Source of the DNA: Octopus sinensis
Taxonomy: Eukaryota
Length of the DNA: 21,285 bases
Direction: 5' to 3'
Assembly: GCF_006345805.1 (NCBI RefSeq)
Contig: NW_021823756.1
Location: forward strand, 1-21,285
Part shown: one piece after another, positions 10,965 through 21,285 of the stretch
How the letters are laid out: each line of letters opens with the position of its first letter
How positions within the stretch are numbered: position 1 is the stretch's first letter
The notes under the pieces: model-generated
What the model was told of the DNA's origin: nothing
Database searches by the model: none
Seen by the model: the letters and a program-made list of their open reading frames with translations, nothing else
Translations under genes and position numbers: made by a program

Positions 10965-13928
10965 TCATGGAGGCTTTCTAGCAACTGATATTGGTGGCAT
11001 GAGAGAGTTCGATGCAGCTGCCCTCATCTGCCCCTCCTGCCGTGAAGTTGGTTCATCTGGGACACCTGACAGGAAGAGATCTAGCTTCATTTTAAAGACA
11101 TCTGTATCCACCCCATGCAGGTCTCTCAGGTTCTTCGGGAGGATATTGAAGAGCTGTGGGCCTCGGAAGCCCAGGCTATCACAGAATCTTGTCCTACATC
11201 TTGATGGCAGGTTTGGAGTCCTAGGCACCACGCAGTGGCGCCCATTTGGCATTTACGTAACTCTCGATGCCAAAGTTCAGGACACTTCCCTCCAGGATCT
11301 TCCAGATGTATATTATGGCATATCTTTCCCGCCTACGCTCCAGGGAATATAATTTTAATCTCTTGAGTCTTTCCCAGTAGCTTACATTCTGCATAGAGGC
11401 TATCTTCTTTGTGTAGCTTCGTTGGATCGCCTCAAGTTCTGTGATCAACTTGACACTGGATGGTGACCATAGCTGAGAGCAATAGTCAAAGCGGCTTAGG
11501 AAAAGTGTCTTCCAGAGGACCATCATGGTTTCTTGTTCTCTTGTTCTAAAGGTTCTATGAATCCATCCAGCCAGCCGTCTACATTTCATTGTCAGTTTAG
11601 CAACATGTACATGAAAGGTCGCGTCATCACTCATGTGAATACCCAGGTCACGCACTGATTGTGCCTCTGGGATTGCAATCCCTCCGGGTCCAGTGTATTC
11701 ATTGGGTATTGCATTCAGTTTTGCATGCTGATAGTATAAAGCTTGAAACTTTCCAGCATTGAACTGCATGCTATTCTTTTCGGCCCACTTGTATATTTCG
11801 TCAGCTCACATTGCAGGTGTTTAGTGTCCTCAGGGTTCTGTATTGCCTGTGAAACTTTTGTATCATCTGCATAACTTGTGATCGTGGCTCTCTGCGTGGC
11901 TGAGGGCATGTCTGAGAGGGCCATTATGAACAGCAGTGGTCCCAGAACAGTGCCCTGCGGAACACCGCTCACTATTTGTGTGTTGATGGAGGTGGCCCCA
12001 TTGGCTACTACCACCTGACTTCTATCCTTCAGAAAGTCATGAAGCCATTCTCCCAGTTTTCCAACTATGTTGAGATCACGCAGTTTGTGACATATTATTC
12101 CATGATCGACTCTATCAAGGGCCTTTGCAAAGTCGAGATATATCACTTCCACATTTGAGTGGTTGAGCAGCCGTTTCAGCACCCAGTCATAGTGTTGTAG
12201 GAGCTGAGTTAAACAGCTTCTCCCTGGTCGGAAACCATGTTGGGTGTCGGGCAGCAAGTCATTCTCTTCAAGGAAGGTGATCAGCTTCCTTCTGACTATT
12301 CGTTCCATGACCTTGCTGATGTGTGAGGTGAGAGAGATAGGTCTATAGTTCTTGGCTTCCGCTCTGCTACCTCCTTTGTGAATGGGGCATATTTTACCTT
12401 CCTTCAGTTTTCTTGGAAGTTTGCCAGCTGCAAGGAAGCTCTGAAAGAGGAACTGCAGTGGTCTTGCTAGGACTCTCTTACATGCTTTTAGGAGGATTGC
12501 CGGGAATCCATCGGGGCCAGTAGCTGAGTCTGTTTTCATTTCATCTATAGCCTTGGTTACATCGTCTTCCTTTATATCGATGTAATCTATCGTCGCCGCC
12601 TCTGATTTTATATCTGCAGTGGTAAAAAAGTCGGTTGGATGGTGATTTGGAGATGCCCAAGGGGTGGAGTGAAAACACTCTTGAATTGCTCATTCAGTAT
12701 TTCACTTACCCATCATTGGTTTTCCTGTAAGTGTGCCATCCTTTTCGAGGAGTGGCCCTATTCTACAGTGCACTGTAGCTGTTTCTTTGGCATACCTGTA
12801 GAAAGCTCTGGGGTTAGATTTTATGTTTCTATAGCCCAGGCTTCTTTGTCTGCTCTTTCCTTTTTCATGGGAGAGTTGCAGACATTTTTCGATTTCCAAC
12901 AGTTTTATTTTTAGGCGGGACTTTTCACTGCTTTCAATCTGTTTGTTTAGGCGATTTGAAAATTTCGTACGCCGTCTCATTAAAATTTTCCTCTCTCTGG
13001 GGATTTTGTTCTTGTGTACAGTGGCCTTTCTCTCTGGGACACATTTGTAGCATATGGCTTGCATTACAGACATGAATTGTTGAAGTTTCACGTCGATGTC
13101 TGGCGAGGAGAGACATTTAGGCCAGTTTTGTTTGAGGATCTCTTTCTCAATTTGTTTCCAGTTTGCCTTATTGTAGTTCAAGCTGGAAAGATTTTGAGGG
13201 TTTCTTGTAGGCTGCATGTCCGTGCTCTCTTTTGGCCCGTACATGGTCAGCTCTATCATGTTGTGATCCGAGAGTAGTGTCGGTGTCACTTTCACATTAT
13301 GGATGAGATCCATGTCATTTGTGAAGCAGAGATCCAGTGTGTTACCTGCCCTGGTTGGTTGGAGTATTACCTGCTCCATGTACAGGGTGTTGATGAGGTT
13401 CAGGAGGGACCTCGCCTGTCCTCGTTCACATCTTGTCATTCCTGGGAGAGAAAGGCCCTCGGGCCATCTGACATTGGGCAGATTGAAGTCTCCCATAAGA
13501 AGCACACCTATGTGTTGTTCTAATGTGGTTAGAATTTCTTCTATTTTTATAAGGCAGTCTTCAAACTTGCCCACATGGCTTGGGGCATCTGGAGGGCGAT
13601 ATGTAGCACACACAACTACATCAAGTTGCCTAATATGTACAATTAGTGTGTCACACACCGAGTTTGAGTATGACAAGAGGACCTGGGGTGTGAGGTCCAC
13701 GGATGTACATAGCAACACACCTCCATGACTCCTTTCTTTCCTCTCGGTCCGTAGTACAGCATACTGTGGTATGTGTAACTCCGCATCTGCTATGTCCGGT
13801 TTCAGGTGCGTTTCTGTAAGTGCTATGCATAAGGCTTGATTGCATGCAACAAAGTCTCTCAGGAACGGGATCTTTGTCCTGTTACTGTGTGTTTGCAGTC
13901 CTCTGATGTTCAGTAGGAGTATCGAGGT
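10965..13928 (-). pseudogene. LINE ORF2 (apurinic-like endonuclease + reverse transcriptase), broken by several frameshifts
   Basis: APE motifs LLLNIRGL, ALTETHL, HGGV, YRPP, MGDFN, LDLCFTN, SDH. RT motifs GPDG, NYRPISLTS, QHGFRPGRSC, YLDFAKALDRVDH, GVPQGTVLGPLLF, YADD, RDLG, YSLERRRERY. Pieces at 12702-13718, 11715-12539, 11221-11769 and 10965-11252. The indels may be sequencing errors. Confidence 0.95.
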
Positions 13929-14820
13929 GAGGTGTACGTGTTGCCGGCGGTGTCCATCCTGTTTCTGTTTGCTGTGGTGGTCTGGTATATAGTGGGTAGT
14001 CCCACCTGCGGGCTTGGGTTTGATGAAGCCAGGTCAGCTGCTGTACAATCTTTTGTGCCATGCACAAAAAAGATTGTTGCTCAGCAGCTGCTCTTTCGAC
14101 AACATCATGTTGGCTGTTTGTGGCGCGCACAACATCTGCGTACCTCCGCTTTGGGGCAGGTGGTGCGTGGTCCATCCCTTTTCTTTGTGTTGATGGTTTG
14201 TCCATCTGCCTCGTGTCTCTGTGGCAGGGTCCCCGATGTGCAAAGCGGCAGCCTGCACCTTCCTTTCCATGCCAGCAGGAACCTCTCAGGTAGAACATAC
14301 ACACCCGTGTGCGCTGTTTGGTTCCATCCTTTGCGGTTCCACTTCTATTCCTGGTTGTTTCACTCTTTGGTCCTGCTTCAGCTTTTTCTGTTCCTTTAGC
14401 TCTTCCAGTCCTTCTTTTAGTTCTTCTTCCTCCCTCTACCTCTTCACCGGGTTCTCCGTCTCCATGGCCCTTGCTGCCGGTTGGAGAACTTGCACCTGGG
14501 TTCACTTCCCGTGCAGGTTTCTCATTCAAAACCTCCTCCCGGGCGTCCACCAGGTGGGGGTGACTTCTTTCATCGTCTCCATTCTTGCCATCTTTGCCCC
14601 GCTCGTTCTCAAAGATGGCATCAAGTGCGCCAATGTGCGACCGTACAAGCGCATATGAGCGCAGGAATTCCCGTCTCTTTTGCTCCATCTGAGCCGCTGT
14701 CCTCTTGTAGCCTCTGCTCTTCAGCGCAGCCGCAATCACCTCGCTAGGGCTATCTCCGCCGGCGCACTCCCATGCTTGTACGAATAAATCCAGCTCGTCA
14801 GGTCTCCATGCTCTGGACAT
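13882..14820 (-). CDS. LINE ORF1 (312 aa): N-terminal trihelix Myb/SANT-like domain, charged disordered linker, CCCH zinc finger
   Basis: Intact ATG-TAA ORF directly upstream of and overlapping the APE start. Motifs WRPDELDLFVQAW...EVIAAALKSRGYKRTAAQMEQKRREFLRSY, CMFYLRGSCWHGKEGAGCRFAH (C-x7-C-x8-C-x3-H) and YADVV. Confidence 0.85.
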   Translation of the reverse strand: MSRAWRPDELDLFVQAWECAGGDSPSEVIAAALKSRGYKRTAAQMEQKRREFLRSYALVRSHIGALDAIFENERGKDGKNGDDERSHPHLVDAREEVLNEKPAREVNPGASSPTGSKGHGDGEPGEEVEGGRRTKRRTGRAKGTEKAEAGPKSETTRNRSGTAKDGTKQRTRVCMFYLRGSCWHGKEGAGCRFAHRGPCHRDTRQMDKPSTQRKGMDHAPPAPKRRYADVVRATNSQHDVVERAAAEQQSFLCMAQKIVQQLTWLHQTQARRWDYPLYTRPPQQTETGWTPPATRTPHLDTPTEHQRTANTQ

Positions 14821-14879
14821 GCTGGATAATCCGTCTATCCGTTTATCTATCTAATTATGTTCGAGAGAAGACAGGAAGA

Positions 14880-16865
14880 TATTAAGGCTAATTAGAAGAT
14901 AGAGTACTTGAAAAAGAAATATTAACAATATTAAAGTTTGTGTAAAAACGTTATTTGGGTAAAAACGTTATTTAATCTTAAGGCTAATTAGGGGATAGAG
15001 TATCTGAAAATGTATTAGCAATATTATATTATATTAGAGTGTGGATAAAAACGTTGTTTAATCTTAAGGCTAATTAGGAGATAGAGTATCTGAAAATATA
15101 TTAGCAATATTAATATTATATTAGAGTGTGGGTAAAAAACGTTATTTAATCTTAAGGCTAATTTGGAGATAGAGTATCTGAAAATATATTAGCAATATTA
15201 ATATTATATTAGAGTGTGGTAATATTAAATGTTATTAATTTAATCTTAAGGCTAATTAGAAGACAGAGTATCTGAAAAATTATATATACAATATTAAGCA
15301 ATATCAACCGTTATTTAATTTAATCTTAAGGCTAATTAGACGTTATTAATATTAAACGTTATTTAATTTAATCTTAAGGCTAATTAGAAGATAGAGTATC
15401 TGAAAATATATTAGCAATATTAATATTTATTAGAGTGTGGGTAAAAACGTTATTTAATCTTAAGGCTAATTAGGAGATAGAGTATCTGAAAATATATTAG
15501 CAATGTTTATTTATTAGAGTGTGGGTAATATTAAACGTTATTTAATTTAATCTTAAGGCTAATTAGAAGATAGAGTATCTGAAGAATTATTAACAATATT
15601 AAACAATATTAAACGTTTTTAATTTAATCTTAAGGCTATTAACAATAATTATTAACAATATTAAACATATTAAACGTTATTTAATTTAATCCTGAGGCTA
15701 ATTAACAATAATTATTAACAATATTAACAATATTAAACGTTATTTAATTTATCTTAAGGCTAATTAACAGTAATATTAACAATATTAAACGTTATTTAAT
15801 TTAATCCTAAGGCTAATTAACAATAATTATTAACAATATTAAACAATATATAAACGTTATTTAATTTAATCCTAAGGCTAATTAGACGTTATTAATATTA
15901 AACGTTATTAATTTAATCTTAAGGCTAATTAGAAGATAGAGTATCTGAAAAATTATTAACAATATTAAACGTTATTAATTTAATCTTAAGGCTAATTAAC
16001 ATAATAATTATTAACATATTAAACAATATTAAACGTTATTTAATTTAATCCAAGGCTAATTAACAATAATATTAACAATATTAAACAATATTAAACGTTA
16101 TTTAATTTAATCTTAAGGCTAATTAACAATAATTATTAACAATATTAAAACAATATTAAACGTTATTTAATTTAATCCTAAGGCTAATTTGACGGTATCA
16201 ATATTAAACGTTATTTAATTTAATCCTGAGGCTAATTAACAATAATTATTAACAATATTAAACAATATTAAACGTTATTTAATTTAATCTTAAGGCTAAT
16301 TAACAGTAATTATTAACAATATTAAACGTTATTTAATTTAATCCTAAGGCTAATTAACAATAATTATTAACAATATTAAACAATATTAAACGTTATTTAA
16401 TTTAATCCTAAGGCTAATTAGACGTTATTAATATTAAACGTTATTTAATTTAATCTTAAGGCTAATTAGAAGATAGAGTATCTGAAAAATTATTAACAAT
16501 ATTAAACGTTATTTAATTTAATCTTAAGGCTAATTAACAATAATTATTAACAATATTAAACAATATTAAACGTTATTTAATTTAATCCTAAGGCTAATTA
16601 ACAATAATTATTAACAATATTAAACAATATTAAACGTTATTTAATTTAATCTTAAGGCTAATTAACAATAATTATTAACAATATTAAAACAATATTAAAC
16701 GTTATTTATTTAATCCTAAGCTAATTAACAATAATATTAACAATATTAAACAATATTAAACGTTATTTAATTTAATCCTAAGGCTAATTTGACGGTATCA
16801 ATATTAAACGTTATTTAATTTAATCTTAAGGCTAATTAGAAGATAGAGTATCTGGAAAATTATTA
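14880..16865. repeat. AT-rich modular tandem array: 30 copies of the core TAATCYTAAGGCTAATT with alternative modules and a ~534-bp higher-order repeat
   Basis: Cores counted by eye. Modules begin GAAGATAGAGTATCTG, ACAATAATT, GACGTTATT or TGACGGTATC. The diagnostic CCTGAGG variant occurs at 15691 and 16225. Confidence 0.92.
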
Positions 16866-17311
16866 TATCGAGAACAGATATTGAAAATGTAAACAAACAA
16901 AATGACGATCGCAACTTTAACTAAGATGTGGGCCTAAGTGAAAGATAAAATAGAATAATAAATAAAATATGAATAGATGAAATTGATACTTAATCCAACA
17001 ATGTGGTCTGGATTATTTTTTTGGTTTACGGGATTTTTTTCAGGAGAGATGCTTCTTTTTTCTTTCTTGCAGGAGATAACTTGATTCAGTTATTTTTGCA
17101 CCATGTGCGTTTCGGCGAAAATGAAAATTACTGTGTATATGTATATATTTATATATATATTTTTTAAAATATTTTAACCAAAGTGTTGTAGTGATCTCTA
17201 TGACTTAGAGTTTTACTTTTGCAACTACAGTGGGTTATTTCGCCGATCTATGCAAACTTTTTCACAGAGAAAAGCAATAACGTCTCTCTCTGTTAAAAAC
17301 GACGGAACCGG

Positions 17312-17345
17312 ATATATATATATATATATATTATGTATATATATA

Positions 17346-17387
<42 letters not shown>

Positions 17388-17560
17388 ATATATTATATGT
17401 ATATATATAGATATGTATATATATATATAATGTATAATATATATTTATATATATATGTATATATATTGTATATATATGTATATATATATATGTATCTTGT
17501 ATTATATATATGTATATATATATTAGTATATATATATATATATATAGTATATATATATAT
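17312..17560. repeat. (TA)n microsatellite
   Basis: Directly visible. Confidence 0.95.
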
Positions 17561-18316
17561 GAGCTAACAATCGTACTGACTTTCATGGGAACATGTATTT
17601 TTGTGTTGAAACCTTTTGGATTAACTGGTGCTAGAGTGAGCCATATAGTGACCACTCTCTTATATATTTTGTAAAAATATTAAAATATATTATAAAATAT
17701 AATTATCCAGGTTCTCGGAGCACTAGGCCACTTGGTGTTGAATAGACATACTATTAAATTAGTATCTAATTCTCTCACCCTTATTAATTAATTATAATTA
17801 TGCTGCATTTATTTCTAAATGCAGTATTTGTTTTTCCGTGAAAGTTGGGCGCGCTGTTAGTTGGGGCATTTGAATTATAACGTCGGATGTAATCAATTGA
17901 ACCACACGTGTATTTATCGTTATGGTAAAATCTGGCGTGTGATTGAGTGGATTTCATCCAGATAGTTTTGGCTGACGAGCTACAAGTGGATTTTTTTGTA
18001 AGTAAAATACATTTATTCATTAATAGCGAAACAATTGTCCCAAAATAATCGTATTTTTGTTATTTTTTATTTGCCCTGTCCGTGTGAGCTAACAATCGTA
18101 CTGACTTTCATGGAAACATGTATTTTTGTGGTTGAACCTTTTGGATTAACTGGTGCTAGAGTGAGCCATATAGTGACCACTCTCTTATTTTATTTGTAAA
18201 AATATTATATATATTTATAAAATATAATTATCCAGGTTCTCGGAGCACTAGGCCACTTGGTGTTGAATAGACATACTATTAAATTAGTATCTAATTCTCT
18301 CACCTATTATTAATTA
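17561..18316 (+). mobile_element. Retrozyme-like / non-autonomous PLE-related element: 525-bp non-coding unit present in ~1.4 tandem copies
   Basis: Near-identical ~230-bp direct repeats at 17561-17790 and 18086-18316 flank a segment with an intact hammerhead. (TA)n on both sides. Confidence 0.75.
17965..18046 (+). ncRNA. Type I hammerhead ribozyme, fully canonical core
   Basis: GTTTTGG-CTGACGA-GCTA...TAGC-GAAA-C-AATT-G-TC-CCAAAAT: stem I 6 bp + GU, stem II 4 bp closed by G-C, palindromic stem III ACAATTGT, GUC triplet (predicted cut after 18039). Confidence 0.88.
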
Positions 18317-18339
18317 TGTATATTAATATATGTTATAGA

Positions 18340-18378
<39 letters not shown>

Positions 18379-18396
18379 TATATGTATATATATATG

Positions 18397-18433
<37 letters not shown>

Positions 18434-18654
18434 GTATTATAGATGTATATATATATATATATATGTTATATATATATATGTATAATATATATATATATAT
18501 ATCTATTTAATATATGTATATATATATATATATATGTATATTATATATATATGTATTATATATATATAATGTATATATATAGTATATTTATATCTATATG
18601 ATATATATATATATGTTATATATATATATATATATGTAAGATATATATATATGA

Positions 18655-18694
<40 letters not shown>

Positions 18695-18700
18695 TATATA

Positions 18701-18746
<46 letters not shown>

Positions 18747-18781
18747 TATCTATATATATGTATATATATATATGTATATAT

Positions 18782-18812
<31 letters not shown>

Positions 18813-18844
18813 GTATATATATATATATATGTATATATATATGT

Positions 18845-18901
<57 letters not shown>

Positions 18902-18956
18902 TATATATATAATATATATATATATTATAATATGTGTGTGTATATATATATACATG

Positions 18957-18990
<34 letters not shown>

Positions 18991-19000
18991 ATATATATCT
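18317..19000. repeat. Degenerate (TA)n microsatellite
   Basis: Directly visible. Confidence 0.97.
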
Positions 19001-19003
19001 CAT

Positions 19004-19222
19004 ATAAGGGACTAAAGCCATCTGAATATGGCAAGGACAGGGCAGGGTGGTGGGGGTGTTACTGTTCCATTTAGCCCAAGCGAGCATCAACGTCGCCAGA
19101 TAGGCTTGACAAACAGTAACACCCCCACCACCCTGCCCTGTCCCTAGCCATATTCAGATGGCTTTAGTCCCTTATGTATGGAGCAGTTACTGTCTATATC
19201 TCATTTAGATAATTATTATTGC
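19004..19222. mobile_element. Fold-back element: 63/64-bp inverted repeats with a 45-bp spacer and a 47-bp right extension
   Basis: 19004-19066 is the reverse complement of 19112-19175 apart from one substitution and one indel. Confidence 0.75.
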
Positions 19223-19345
19223 TATATATATATATATATTATATAATATATATATATAATAATATATCTATATATATATATAATGTATCTATATATATAT
19301 ATGTATAAGTATATATATAATGTATATATATATATATATTATAGG

Positions 19346-19379
<34 letters not shown>

Positions 19380-19763
19380 ATACTATATATATTGTATATA
19401 TATATACTATATAATAATGTATATATATTATATTTTATATATATAATATTATTATGTTATATATATATATATATATATATGTATTATATATATTTTAATA
19501 TATATATATATTGTATATATATATATATAATATATGTAATATATATATATGATGTATATATATATATGTATATATATATATGATATATATATATATATGT
19601 ATAATATATATAATATAAATAGATATATATCTATCTATATATATGTATATATATATAATATAAATAATATTTATACTATATATATATATATACATATATA
19701 CAATATATGTATATATATTTATAAATATATATATATATGATATATATATATAATATATATATA

Positions 19764-19808
<45 letters not shown>
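19223..19808. repeat. Degenerate (TA)n microsatellite
   Basis: Directly visible. Confidence 0.97.
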
Positions 19809-19809
<1 letters not shown>

Positions 19810-21285
19810 TCTTTTACTCTTTTACTTGTTTCAGCCTCCGGCTGAGGCCATGCTGGGGCACCGCCCTAGTTGCTACCCTCTCTAAGTCCAGTTTGCTGTG
19901 GCTGGCCACTGATCTAAGTGAGAGTTTGTAGCTGCTGCCCTTAGTTTACCCTCGTACCTTGCAGTGGGTTCATCTGGGATCCCGGAAAGCAGCTTGTCTA
20001 GATGTTTTTTGAAAATGTCCACATCCGCATCATGTAGATCTCTTAGTTTTCTTGGCAGTTTGTTGAACAGCTGAGGGGCCCTGAACCCCAGGCTATTACA
20101 GTATCTGCTCCTTACCCTGGATGTGGAAGACGGGACCTTTGGCACCACACAGTGACGTCCTGCACGGGGATTGGAACAGCTCTCAATTCCAAAATCTGGT
20201 GCTAGTCCCTCCAGGATTTTCCATATGTATATCACTGCATATCTCTCTCGTCTTCGTTCCAAGGAGTACAAATTGAGTTCCCTAAGCCTCTCCCAATAGT
20301 TCTCTTCTTTCATGGTGGAAATCCTCTTGGTGAAATGTCTTTGGATTGTCTCAAGCTCTGTGGTTAGTTACACTATGCGGTGACCACAGTTGGGAGCAGT
20401 AGTCCAGGCGGCTTAGAACAAATGTCCTCCATAGTGTCAACATGGTCTCGGCAGTCTCTTGTCCGGAATGTCTCTCAGGATCCAGCCAGTGAGTCGTCTG
20501 CACATTGTCGCCACCTTCGCGATTGTGTGAAGAAAAAGATGCATCGTCACTCATGTCTATCCCCAGGTCCCGTATTGATTTCGATACTGGGATTTCGAGC
20601 CCTCCTGGACCAGTATTTTGTGTTGTAATGTATATGTGTTTACAGCTTGATATTGTAAGGCTTGAAATTTACCAGCATTAAATTGCATGTTGTTGTCTTC
20701 ACCCATTTGTATATGGCATCCAGATCTTGTTGTAAAAGGTCAGCATCAGCTGGGTTTTTGATTGCCTGTGCTACCTTTGTGTCATCAGCATAGATAGTGA
20801 GGGATGTGTTTGTGCTACCAAGGGCATGTCAGAGAGCGCTACAAAAACAGCAAGGGCCCAAGACTGTGCCTGTGGCACCCCGCTTGCATTGGTGTCTTTC
20901 CCGAGAGGGCTCCATTGGCTGCAACCATCTGGCTTCTGTCCTTCAGGAAGTCATGTATCCACTCACCTACTTTTCCTGTTATGCCGAGTCTGAGTAATTT
21001 GTGACATATCACTCCATGGTCGACTTTGTCAAAGGCCTTCGCAAAGTCGAGATATACCACATCCACCTGTGAGCGATCCAGTATTGTTTCAGTACCCAGT
21101 CGTAGTGTTTTGTAACAGCTGCGTAAGGCAGCTTCTTCTGGGCGAAAGCCATGCTGTGGTGTCAGTGAGACGGTTAGTTTTCTCGAGGAACGTGATCAGT
21201 TTTTTCTGATGATTCGTTCTATGACCTTACTTATGTGTGACGTCAGGGAGACTGGCCTGTAGTTTTTGGCCTCTGCTCTACTCCC
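19809..21285 (-). mobile_element. 3' portion of a related but distinct LINE family; runs off the window end
   Basis: YLDFAKAFDKVDHG, YADD (gtcatcagcata), LSRLDYCSQLWSP, YWERLRELNLYSLERRRERY and SGIPDEPT. 3' stem-loop at 19828-19865 and + strand tail (ACTCTTTT)2 next to (TA)n. Confidence 0.93.

What the first reader, a model, noticed from the sequence alone, without database searches (positions are those of the whole stretch)
14880..16865. 2-kb combinatorial repeat array directly upstream of ORF1: constant core, interchangeable modules, higher-order duplication
Seen: 30 cores (AAACGTTATTTAATT)TAATCYTAAGGCTAATT, each followed by one of a few modules: A GAAGATAGAGTATCTG; A' a longer form with GAGTGTGG; B ACAATAATTATTAACAAT; C GACGTTATT; D TGACGGTATC. 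Units 11-19 (B,B,B,C,A,B,B,B,D) recur as units 20-29 with one extra B, period ~534 bp. Long, more diverged units lie next to ORF1 and homogeneous ones lie distally, so the array is polarised. It starts only ~60 bp from the ORF1 ATG with no (TA)n in between. Known: mouse L1 uses tandem 5' UTR monomers as an additive promoter. Inference: this is an element-encoded, expandable regulatory array. It is dense in TAATCC/TAATTA (homeodomain-like), AACAAT (Sox-like) and AGATAG (GATA-like) words, though AT-richness inflates such matches. It could also be the binding platform for the ORF1 Myb/SANT domain (autoregulation), or a satellite seeded by the LINE.
Basis: partly seen in the sequence, partly recalled or inferred. 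Interest (0 to 1): 0.72.

Follow-up and report, generated by a model that had tools for sequence, protein, structure and literature searches.

The report
Hypervariable repeat block inside LINE leader
The 2-kb repeat array is a built-in, highly variable part of the untranslated leader of a young jumping gene (a LINE) in a cephalopod genome; it lies behind a unique start segment that likely holds the promoter, so it would act as a booster or spacer rather than as a stack of promoters like those of mouse LINE-1.

Summary
Observation confirmed: 30 cores, five unit types, a 534-bp higher-order duplication and a long-proximal/short-distal polarity lie at 14876-16865, 55 nt from the minus-strand ORF1 ATG. 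The array belongs to the element. Of 78 copies chosen by ORF1 or by the ORF1-array junction, every copy that extends past the junction carries it. In 69 complete copies it has 12-38 units (median 16) in 48 different orders; the window's 30 units are the second largest. It is not the element's 5' end. A ~450-nt unique leader lies upstream, and 53 of 71 leader-bearing copies end at one terminus. That terminus carries a match to the insect-LINE downstream promoter element at the expected distance, kept in three subfamilies. Sister subfamilies carry unrelated tandem arrays at the same place; one is a grown (TATC)n microsatellite. Truncated copies start at scattered unit phases. So the mouse-L1 "stacked promoter" reading is not supported, while "element-encoded and expandable" is. 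A regulatory role is inferred, not shown; a tolerated, slippage-prone minisatellite remains a strong rival. No usable RNA data were available. Earlier notes of this scan report LINE 5' arrays in other genomes. New variant of a known kind; moderate interest.

The parts
10727..10876 (.). (TA)n microsatellite flanking the element's 3' end (target or flank, not the element's tail)
   Evidence: TRF. Other copies lack (TA)n here.
10878..10896 (-). 3' tail of the LINE: (CAAT)n on the sense strand, read as (ATTG)n on the + strand
   Evidence: Present at the 3' end of all 11 other copies inspected; coordinates.
11221..13496 (-). ORF2 remnants (AP-endonuclease and reverse transcriptase), broken by frameshifts in this copy
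   Evidence: ORFs. Pfam Exo_endo_phos_2 E 1.8e-7 and RVT_1 E 5.2e-25. The longest ORF2 in other copies is 998 aa.
13882..14820 (-). ORF1 (312 aa here, 303 aa in several copies): N-terminal Myb/SANT-like three-helix domain and a CCCH zinc finger
   Evidence: Pfam hits are below the cut-off. Model pLDDT 77, and the best fold matches are Myb/SANT domains with E >= 0.31.
14821..14875 (-). 55-nt tether between ORF1 ATG and the first core; contains the TATCTATCTAATTA word that is a (TATC)n microsatellite in sister subfamilies
   Evidence: A 27-mer of it occurs 118 times in the genome, with 0 control hits.
14876..15640 (-). ORF1-proximal part of the array: units 1-9 (A, A', C types, 48-96 bp)
15641..16865 (-). 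Distal part of the array: units 10-30 (mainly B, with C A ... D A), including the higher-order duplication 15704-16237 / 16238-16837
16866..17311 (-). Unique 5' leader of the element, shared by other copies; one sense ATG (17102-17104, a 4-codon uORF) against 11-12 antisense ATGs
17278..17285 (-). Match to the downstream promoter element near the 5' terminus. It reads AGACGTTA in this copy, with a 3-nt insertion nearby, and AGACGTGA in 17 of 22 copies.
   Evidence: Consensus and position taken from PMC1636488 (passages).
17312..17560 (.). (AT)n run at the 5' terminus: a short (AT)3-4 belongs to the element end, the rest is flank or target

Best explanation
The array is an integral, hypervariable tandem-repeat block inside the 5' untranslated leader of a young LINE family, lying between a ~450-nt unique leader and ORF1, and it likely acts as a multimerised downstream cis-regulatory block for a promoter predicted to sit at the element's 5' terminus. 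Shown: the array is part of the element, is copied with it, and changes in unit number and order between copies. Shown: most copies that keep the leader end at one terminus. Shown: sister subfamilies carry different arrays at the same place. Inferred: transcription starts at the terminus, where a downstream-promoter-element match is conserved, so the array is transcribed as an AUG-free, unstructured A/U-rich stretch of the mRNA leader. Inferred, with weaker support: the array is kept because repeated factor sites raise or shape transcription. This resembles the internal 5' UTR repeats of Drosophila gypsy, ZAM and Idefix more than the terminal monomers of mouse L1.
For: Integral part of the element. 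17 of 20 loci found with array DNA carry the ~4.0-kb body at 96.7-98.5% identity, starting at the same junction. 20 of 20 ORF1-selected copies have the array at that junction. Of 58 tether-selected copies, 55 have at least one unit and 3 are truncated inside the tether. None of these 78 anchor-selected copies joins leader to tether without an array.
Variation. 69 complete 5' regions hold 12-38 units (median 16) over 808-2950 bp, in 48 distinct orders.
Internal position. Homology runs 446 nt beyond the array. 53 of 71 leader-bearing copies end at the same ...GGAACCGG + (AT)n terminus.
Promoter at the terminus. AGACGTGA lies 24-31 nt after CCGG, which is about 30-39 nt from the terminus, in 17 of 22 copies. 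AGACGTGT in L067 and ACACGTGT in L059, L141 and L142 sit at the same distance, although the sequence in between differs. This matches the consensus A/G-G-A/T-C-G-T-G/T-C/T found around +29 to +36 of Doc, F, G, I and jockey (PMC1636488, passages; PMC4748587, passages).
Sense-strand transcription. The leader has 1 sense ATG against 11-12 antisense ATGs. Whole 5' UTRs hold 1-4 sense ATGs against 18-30 expected.
Retention. The array makes up a large share of element length and is highly mutable, yet no complete copy has fewer than 12 units. Four sister lineages also carry tandem repeats between leader and ORF1: L067; L059/L141/L142; L061=L064; and family 2 (L046, L050).
Precedent. 19 of 49 Drosophila LTR-retrotransposon 5' UTRs are tandemly repeated, with enhancer or insulator activity reported for gypsy, ZAM and Idefix (PMC8872304, passages).
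Against: There is no transcript, TSS or reporter evidence of any kind. Arrays of four subfamilies share no recurrent non-trivial 6-8-mer, so no conserved binding word supports a factor-site model. The L067-type array is a grown (TATC)n-type microsatellite, and its look-alikes at 8 of 8 sampled loci are plain microsatellites without a LINE ORF1. This shows that the site simply slips easily. Arrays also change in place: the segmental duplicates L061 and L064 are 95% identical but differ by about 100 bp in the array. The S2-type array ranges from 3.6 to 23.6 units, so no fixed dose is needed. ATG depletion within the array holds on both strands and does not hold in family 2 (20 sense ATGs against 22.5 expected). 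All S0 copies descend recently from masters with about 17 units, so the lower bound of 12 may be history rather than selection. The initiator consensus quoted in PMC1636488 is not seen at the terminus.
Confidence: 0.45

Rival explanations
1. A tolerated minisatellite. The stretch between leader and ORF1 is unconstrained and prone to slippage in a genome full of microsatellites. Tandem repeats arise, grow, shrink and are replaced there with no effect on the element.
For: 48 orders in 69 copies. Change in place between segmental duplicates. The sister array in L067 is an expanded (TATC)n-type microsatellite seeded by the tether. No shared word among sister arrays. Units have no RNA structure beyond chance, z -0.53 to +0.60. 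S2 arrays range from 3.6 to 23.6 units.
Against: A useless 0.8-2.9 kb insert should be lost from a LINE that suffers frequent 5' truncation: 28 of 78 anchor-selected copies lack the leader, 3 of them at assembly gaps. Yet no complete copy has fewer than 12 units. All five lineages examined keep repeats at this place, while the adjacent leader stays unique and conserved at 73-74% between subfamilies.
Confidence: 0.3
2. Mouse-L1-type stacked promoters. Each unit carries its own start site, and promoter strength adds up with unit number.
For: Tandem units plus a short tether before ORF1, unit number variable, and unit type specific to the subfamily, as in mouse L1 (PMC5381506 passages; PMC9022269 and PMC6454616 abstracts). 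Weak negative correlation between leader divergence and unit number: rho -0.24, p 0.043, n 69.
Against: The array is not terminal. 53 of 71 leader-bearing copies start at one site upstream of it. The 19 readable truncation points fall at scattered phases of the unit. Units have 19-21% G+C with one CpG, not a CpG island. The sense strand of the units has no match to the downstream promoter element; the nearest match, 7 of 8 positions, lies on the antisense strand of C units (read).
Confidence: 0.05
3. Binding platform for the element's own ORF1 protein through its Myb/SANT-like domain, giving autoregulation or cis-preference on DNA or RNA.
For: The ORF1 N-terminus gives sub-threshold Myb_DNA-bind_4 hits in two diverged families (17.0 and 15.8 bits against a cut-off of 27). 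A three-helix model (pLDDT 77) has Myb and SANT domains as its best fold matches: 6j5b TM 0.72 by target, rmsd 2.5 over 57 columns. A CCCH finger follows.
Against: The ORF1 N-terminal domain is 64-76% identical among subfamilies, while their arrays share no recurrent word. All fold matches have E >= 0.31. The PDB sequence search gave nothing below E 0.18. No binding data exist.
Confidence: 0.05
4. Chromatin device: an insulator, anti-silencing boundary or heterochromatin/small-RNA target, as described for repeats in the 5' UTRs of gypsy, ZAM and Idefix.
For: Same placement (transcribed 5' UTR, downstream of the promoter, upstream of the first ORF) and the same polymorphic repeated organisation (PMC8872304 passages). 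Subfamily-specific replacement of arrays fits an arms race with host factors.
Against: No chromatin, small-RNA or binding data. No shared motif. Everything that favours the neutral model applies here as well.
Confidence: 0.08
5. RNA-level role: a long, unstructured, AUG-free A/U-rich spacer that tunes scanning and translation of ORF1 or packaging of the RNA.
For: 0-3 sense ATGs in 0.8-2.9 kb of array. Folds no better than shuffles. The only conserved sense ATG of the leader opens a 4-codon uORF.
Against: ATG is equally scarce on the antisense strand of the array, so the lack may be an accident of a few unit types. Family 2 has 20 sense ATGs in its leader. Unit number varies threefold.
Confidence: 0.05
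6. A satellite that exists on its own and merely lies next to the LINE, or was seeded by it and now spreads independently.
For: 2 of 20 array loci (L011, L015) lack the ORF1 junction.
Against: Both still carry the leader, so they are partial elements. 18 of 20 keep the junction. The longest array among 69 complete copies is 2.95 kb. The genome search lists only LINE-sized clusters.
Confidence: 0.02

Closest known systems
Monomeric 5' UTRs of mouse and rat LINE-1 (A, Tf, Gf monomers plus tether)
   Same: Tandem units in the 5' UTR joined to ORF1 by a short non-repeated tether. Unit number varies between copies. Unit type is specific to the subfamily and is replaced over time (PMC5381506 passages; PMC9022269 and PMC6454616 abstracts).
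   Different: Here the units are internal, behind a unique ~450-nt leader with one dominant 5' terminus. Units are 48-96 bp, about 80% A+T and not CpG-rich. They come in five types in a semi-fixed order with higher-order duplications. Copies do not begin in the units except by scattered truncation. The element is not an L1: it has a (CAAT)n tail, a Myb/SANT-like plus CCCH ORF1, and cephalopod 'jockey-like' RT relatives.
Tandemly repeated 5' UTRs of Drosophila LTR retrotransposons (gypsy, ZAM, Idefix, Tirant, accord)
   Same: A repeated, polymorphic block in the transcribed leader, downstream of the start site and upstream of the first ORF. These are reported as enhancer, silencer or insulator through host-protein binding (PMC8872304 passages).
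   Different: Those are LTR elements with identified motifs and binding proteins. Here the element is a LINE, and neither a motif nor a binding protein is known.
Internal initiator/downstream-promoter-element promoters of insect LINEs (jockey, Doc, F, G, I; also TRAS1/SART1 and L1Tc Pr77)
   Same: An octamer matching A/G-G-A/T-C-G-T-G/T-C/T about 30 nt inside the 5' terminus, kept at constant distance in three subfamilies (PMC1636488 and PMC4748587 passages).
   Different: The start site is not mapped. The terminus is an (AT)n run followed by CCGG, not the initiator consensus quoted in PMC1636488. The host is a cephalopod.
LINE 5' arrays noted earlier in this scan in other genomes (AI notes e1-9978204, e1-9504400, e1-7812041, e1-9262378, e1-9358462, e1-9843072)
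   Same: Tandem units before ORF1 of young LINEs, compared there with mouse L1 as well.
   Different: Those notes describe terminal CpG-rich monomers (shark and skate CR1, L2) or hairpin-forming units. This array is internal, A+T-rich, unstructured and made of several unit types. I did not check those notes.

Membership tests
Mouse/rat L1-type monomeric promoter | Tandem units in the 5' UTR, separated from ORF1 by a short tether | tested here: met
   30 units; 55-nt tether at 14821-14875.
Mouse/rat L1-type monomeric promoter | Units form the 5' end of the element and full-length copies begin within units | tested here: not met
   A 446-nt unique leader lies upstream. 53 of 71 leader-bearing copies share one terminus. 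Truncation points are scattered in unit phase.
Mouse/rat L1-type monomeric promoter | Unit number varies between copies, and unit type is subfamily-specific | tested here: met
   12-38 units in 69 copies. Sister subfamilies carry different arrays.
Mouse/rat L1-type monomeric promoter | Units are CpG-rich and each has promoter activity | tested here: not met
   G+C is 0.19-0.21, with one CpG per unit. Promoter activity itself cannot be tested with these tools.
Insect-LINE-type internal promoter with downstream promoter element | Octamer A/G-G-A/T-C-G-T-G/T-C/T at about +29 to +36 | tested here: met
   AGACGTGA (7 of 8 positions) at 30-39 nt from the terminus in 17 of 22 copies. 8 of 8 positions in L067; 7 of 8 in L059, L141 and L142 at the same distance. 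The exact offset depends on an unmapped start site.
Insect-LINE-type internal promoter with downstream promoter element | Initiator consensus at +1 and an experimentally mapped start | tested here: inconclusive
   The terminus reads (AT)n-CCGG and shows no initiator consensus. No RNA reads were usable.
Repeated 5' UTR regulatory blocks of gypsy/ZAM/Idefix type | Polymorphic tandem repeats in the transcribed leader between start site and first ORF | tested here: met
   The start site is inferred from the genomic termini.
Repeated 5' UTR regulatory blocks of gypsy/ZAM/Idefix type | Bound by a host protein, with enhancer or insulator activity | not testable with these tools
   Needs binding and reporter assays.
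Free satellite DNA | Long arrays independent of a mobile element | tested here: not met
   18 of 20 other array loci keep the ORF1 junction and the other 2 keep the leader. The largest array seen is 2.95 kb.
Myb/SANT domain (ORF1 N-terminus) | Three-helix bundle recognised by sequence profile or by fold | tested here: inconclusive
   Pfam 17.0 and 15.8 bits against a cut-off of 27. Model pLDDT 77, and the top fold matches are Myb/SANT but with E >= 0.31.

The most novel reading that the evidence does not exclude
A cephalopod LINE lineage keeps a conserved terminal core promoter and repeatedly re-invents a subfamily-specific, expandable tandem array between that promoter and ORF1. The array would be a plug-in enhancer or insulator cassette whose turnover tracks an arms race with host silencing. 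It would be an invertebrate LINE counterpart of both mouse L1 monomer replacement and the gypsy/ZAM leader repeats.
Probability: 0.3. Interest if true: 0.6.

Novelty: new variant of a known kind. Interest (0 to 1): 0.4.

Why it matters
Tandem repeats in LINE leaders are well studied only in rodents, where they are the promoter. This case separates two things that are fused in mouse L1. A unique terminal segment probably fixes the start site, and an internal array expands, contracts and is replaced between subfamilies. Dozens of natural length and order variants (12-38 units) sit in one genome, so the family offers a ready allelic series. That series could test whether repeat dose changes transcription, chromatin state or translation of a retrotransposon in a cephalopod, a group whose LINE activity has been linked to the nervous system (PMC9115989, abstract and passages). 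If the array proves neutral, it is still a clean example of how fast minisatellites evolve inside mobile elements in a microsatellite-rich genome.

Tried and rejected
RNA evidence. The look-up of sequencing runs listed no holder on record as RNA; there were only contigs, with the kind guessed. Laying four 'RNA?' runs on the leader gave contig pieces in 2 of 4 runs, broken at low-complexity sites. One contig ended about at the element terminus. Contigs of a repeat family break there in DNA as well, so this says nothing about expression or start site.

Rfam. At E <= 1 on 14700-17400 the only hit was a chance mir-297 match in the (TA)n run. No ribozyme or known RNA was found.

RNA folding. Units on both strands gave z -0.53 to +0.60, and the first 142 nt of the leader gave z -1.25. 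No structure signal.

Shared motifs. No recurrent 6-, 7- or 8-mer is common to all four subfamily arrays, and pairs share only A+T words.

Unit number against age. rho -0.24, p 0.043, n 69. The divergence measure is inflated by interrupted leaders, so I do not rely on it.

ORF1 N-terminus. The PDB sequence search had a best E of 0.18.

Target-site duplications. They could not be defined in general because many copies lie in (TA)n or (ATT)n. One copy (L003) shows a possible 5-6-nt duplication.

Clade of the LINE. Not resolved. Pfam gives only generic EN and RT domains, one source names an Octopus relative 'jockey-like', and the cuttlefish genome paper has no family names.

Family 2. Its terminus does not show the promoter-element match at about +30; the nearest matches lie near +48 and +62 (my reading).

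Scripts.

Literature. Searches for a description of such arrays in cephalopod LINEs found none (PMC9115989 has 0 occurrences of 'tandem').
Full report
WHAT IS THERE

The window is a whole 21,285-base contig (G000:C227) of a 2.72-Gb animal genome. On its minus strand lies a LINE:
- a (CAAT)n tail at 10878-10896;
- ORF2 remnants with AP-endonuclease and reverse-transcriptase domains at 11221-13496, broken by frameshifts;
- ORF1 at 13882-14820;
- a 55-nt tether;
- the array at 14876-16865.

- There are 30 cores, spaced 46-94 bp. An exact 11-mer of the core occurs 25 times in the array and nowhere else in the window.
- The five unit types lie in the stated order.
- A 534-bp block recurs at 94.3% identity with one extra B unit.
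- Long, more diverged units (76-96 bp, mean identity 0.80) lie next to ORF1. Shorter, more uniform B units (53-65 bp, 0.90-0.93) lie away from it.

THE ARRAY BELONGS TO THE ELEMENT

- A 201-base piece of the array finds at least 198 candidate places in the genome.
- Of 20 such loci, 17 carry the ~4.0-kb body at 96.7-98.5% identity, starting at the same junction. One has 250 bp of body and two have none, but both of those keep the leader.
- In the other direction, the ORF1 start finds at least 534 candidates, and 20 of 20 fetched copies have the array at the same junction.
- A 27-mer of the tether occurs 118 times, against 0 for the reversed control. Of 58 further copies, 55 have at least one unit and 3 are cut inside the tether.
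- None of the 78 anchor-selected copies joins leader to tether without an array.

IT VARIES STRONGLY

Sixty-nine complete 5' regions hold 12-38 units (median 16) over 808-2950 bp, in 48 different orders. The commonest order, A A' A' A C A' A' A B B B B C A B D A, is seen 9 times. A backbone order is kept. The differences are gains and losses of A' and B units and higher-order duplications, such as (B C A' A)n in L023 and L029. The window's 30 units are the second largest of the 69. The ten copies with the least diverged leaders have 16-18 units, with one at 22. The recent source elements therefore probably had about 17 units, and the window's copy is an expanded derivative.

IT IS NOT THE 5' END

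Homology among copies continues beyond the array through 16866-17311. Of 71 copies with this leader, 53 end at the same ...GGAACCGG followed by an AT run. Copies without the leader are ordinary 5' truncations. Among the 22 such copies in the tether-selected set, 3 stop at assembly gaps. The other 19 end at scattered positions of the unit, and 12 of these run straight into at least 20 nt of (TA)-rich microsatellite. A single dominant terminus upstream of the array, with no phasing inside it, speaks against start sites in the units.

A LIKELY CORE PROMOTER AT THE TERMINUS

About 30-39 nt inside the terminus, 17 of 22 copies read AGACGTGA. The window's copy reads AGACGTTA and has a 3-nt insertion nearby. 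Sister subfamilies read AGACGTGT (L067) and ACACGTGT (L059, L141, L142) at the same distance, although the bases between the terminus and the word differ. This fits the downstream promoter element A/G-G-A/T-C-G-T-G/T-C/T found around +29 to +36 of the Drosophila LINEs Doc, F, G, I and jockey (PMC1636488, passages). It also fits the CGTG element of L1Tc (PMC4748587, passages). A CCGGAA/T word right at the terminus is also kept in all three subfamilies; its resemblance to ETS-type sites is recalled, not tested.

The leader has one sense ATG, which opens a 4-codon uORF, against 11-12 antisense ATGs. This fits sense transcription and scanning. The start site itself is inferred, because no usable RNA data exist.

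SISTER LINEAGES

The window also holds fragments of related LINEs: 91% identity at 4512-6386, 74% at 29-1022 and 69% at 19825-21285. I followed two of these into the genome. Copies that reach ORF1 carry other tandem arrays at the same place:
- L067 has 6.8 units of a 75-bp TATC/TAAT-rich repeat.
- The S2 type has a 30-35-bp unit, with 23.6 copies in L059, 6.9 in L141 and 3.6 in L142.
- L061 and L064 have about five 70-bp units. These two are segmental duplicates, 95% identical, yet they differ by about 100 bp in the array.

The 69% family has a ~1.6-kb leader with a 196-bp repeat (2-3 copies) and TC-rich 51-bp repeats. The arrays share no recurrent non-trivial word. The ends of the leaders stay alignable at 73-74%, and the ORF1 N-terminal domain stays 64-76% identical among the sister subfamilies, and 33% identical in the 69% family. 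The L067-type array resembles thousands of plain (TATC)n-like microsatellites. Eight of eight sampled look-alike loci have no LINE ORF1 next to them. The tether of sister copies holds a (TATC)5-7 run. At least that array therefore grew out of a microsatellite.

HOW IT MOST LIKELY WORKS

Shown: the array is copied through the element's RNA, because it is flanked by element sequence on both sides in dozens of dispersed copies. It is therefore part of the transcribed leader.

Inferred: transcription starts at the terminus. The array RNA is A/U-rich, nearly free of AUG (0-3 in 0.8-2.9 kb) and no more structured than shuffles.

Two readings remain for why the array is there.

I favour, with modest confidence, a cis-regulatory block of multiplied sites downstream of the promoter. 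A highly mutable insert of about 1-3 kb should otherwise be lost from an element that is often 5'-truncated. Yet every complete copy keeps at least 12 units, and every lineage examined keeps repeats at this spot. Repeated leaders of Drosophila gypsy, ZAM and Idefix also act as enhancers or insulators (PMC8872304, passages).

The strong rival is a tolerated minisatellite at a site that slips easily. Its support is the microsatellite origin of one sister array, the change in place between L061 and L064, the lack of any shared word, and the wide range of unit numbers.

The mouse-L1 model of stacked promoters (PMC5381506 passages; PMC9022269 and PMC6454616 abstracts) fails on the defining point that the units form the 5' end.

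The ORF1-platform idea has only a weakly supported Myb/SANT-like fold behind it, and conserved protein paired with unrelated arrays speaks against it.

KNOWN OR NEW

RT relatives are cephalopod proteins: Argonauta 73% and Octopus 66%, the latter named 'jockey-like' by its source. The clade was not resolved. The octopus LINE paper I read describes single-ORF RTE and Dong elements and never mentions tandem repeats (PMC9115989, abstract and passages). Two literature searches found no description of such arrays in cephalopod LINEs. Earlier notes of this scan report LINE 5' arrays in other genomes; I did not check them.

I file this as a new variant of a known kind: LINE leader repeats, but internal to the leader, A+T-rich, built of several unit types and replaced between subfamilies.

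The family is young but mostly dead in the sample. None of 18 copies has both a full ORF1 (at least 302 aa) and an ORF2 of about 998 aa.

Noticed in passing
window 10727-10876 and 17312-17560; loci L008, L010, L013, L016; truncated copies: This LINE family seems to prefer microsatellite targets. 12 of 19 readable 5'-truncated copies abut at least 20 nt of (TA)-rich repeat. Several full copies have (TA)n, or (ATT)n in L016, on both sides. The element's own tail is (CAAT)n.
   Followed up: partly
window 4512-6386 (-), 29-1022 (+), 19825-21285 (-): Three further fragments of related LINEs, at 91%, 74% and 69% identity to the 3' part of the main element. The 91% and 69% families give at least 3248 and at least 3648 first-look candidates in the genome.
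   Followed up: partly
L046:about 2640-4300 (-), and L050: The 69% family has a ~1.6-kb leader with a 196-bp repeat (2-3 copies, the number differing between the two copies) and TC-rich 51-bp repeats next to a homologous ORF1. It has 20 sense ATGs in that leader, unlike the main family.
   Followed up: partly
window 13882-13957 (-); other copies: In copies with open frames, ORF2 starts about 48 nt before the ORF1 stop, in another frame (ORF1 1-912, ORF2 from 864). This suggests overlapping ORFs with reinitiation or frameshifting.
   Followed up: no
window 17255-17300 (-); leaders of L059 and L067: The promoter-element word lies in the loop of a conserved inverted repeat (CAGAG...CTCTG on the sense strand). 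The fold of the first 142 nt is not significant (z -1.25).
   Followed up: partly
window 1159-1761, 3144-3455, 7553-8288, 18315-19808 and others: About 18% of this contig is (TA)n microsatellite according to TRF. A G/A-rich low-complexity block lies at 9120-9437.
   Followed up: no
L061 and L064 (G000:C9, about 167 kb apart): A segmental duplication of over 5 kb, 95% identical, carries a sister-subfamily LINE. The two arrays differ in length, which gives a natural measure of array change in place.
   Followed up: partly
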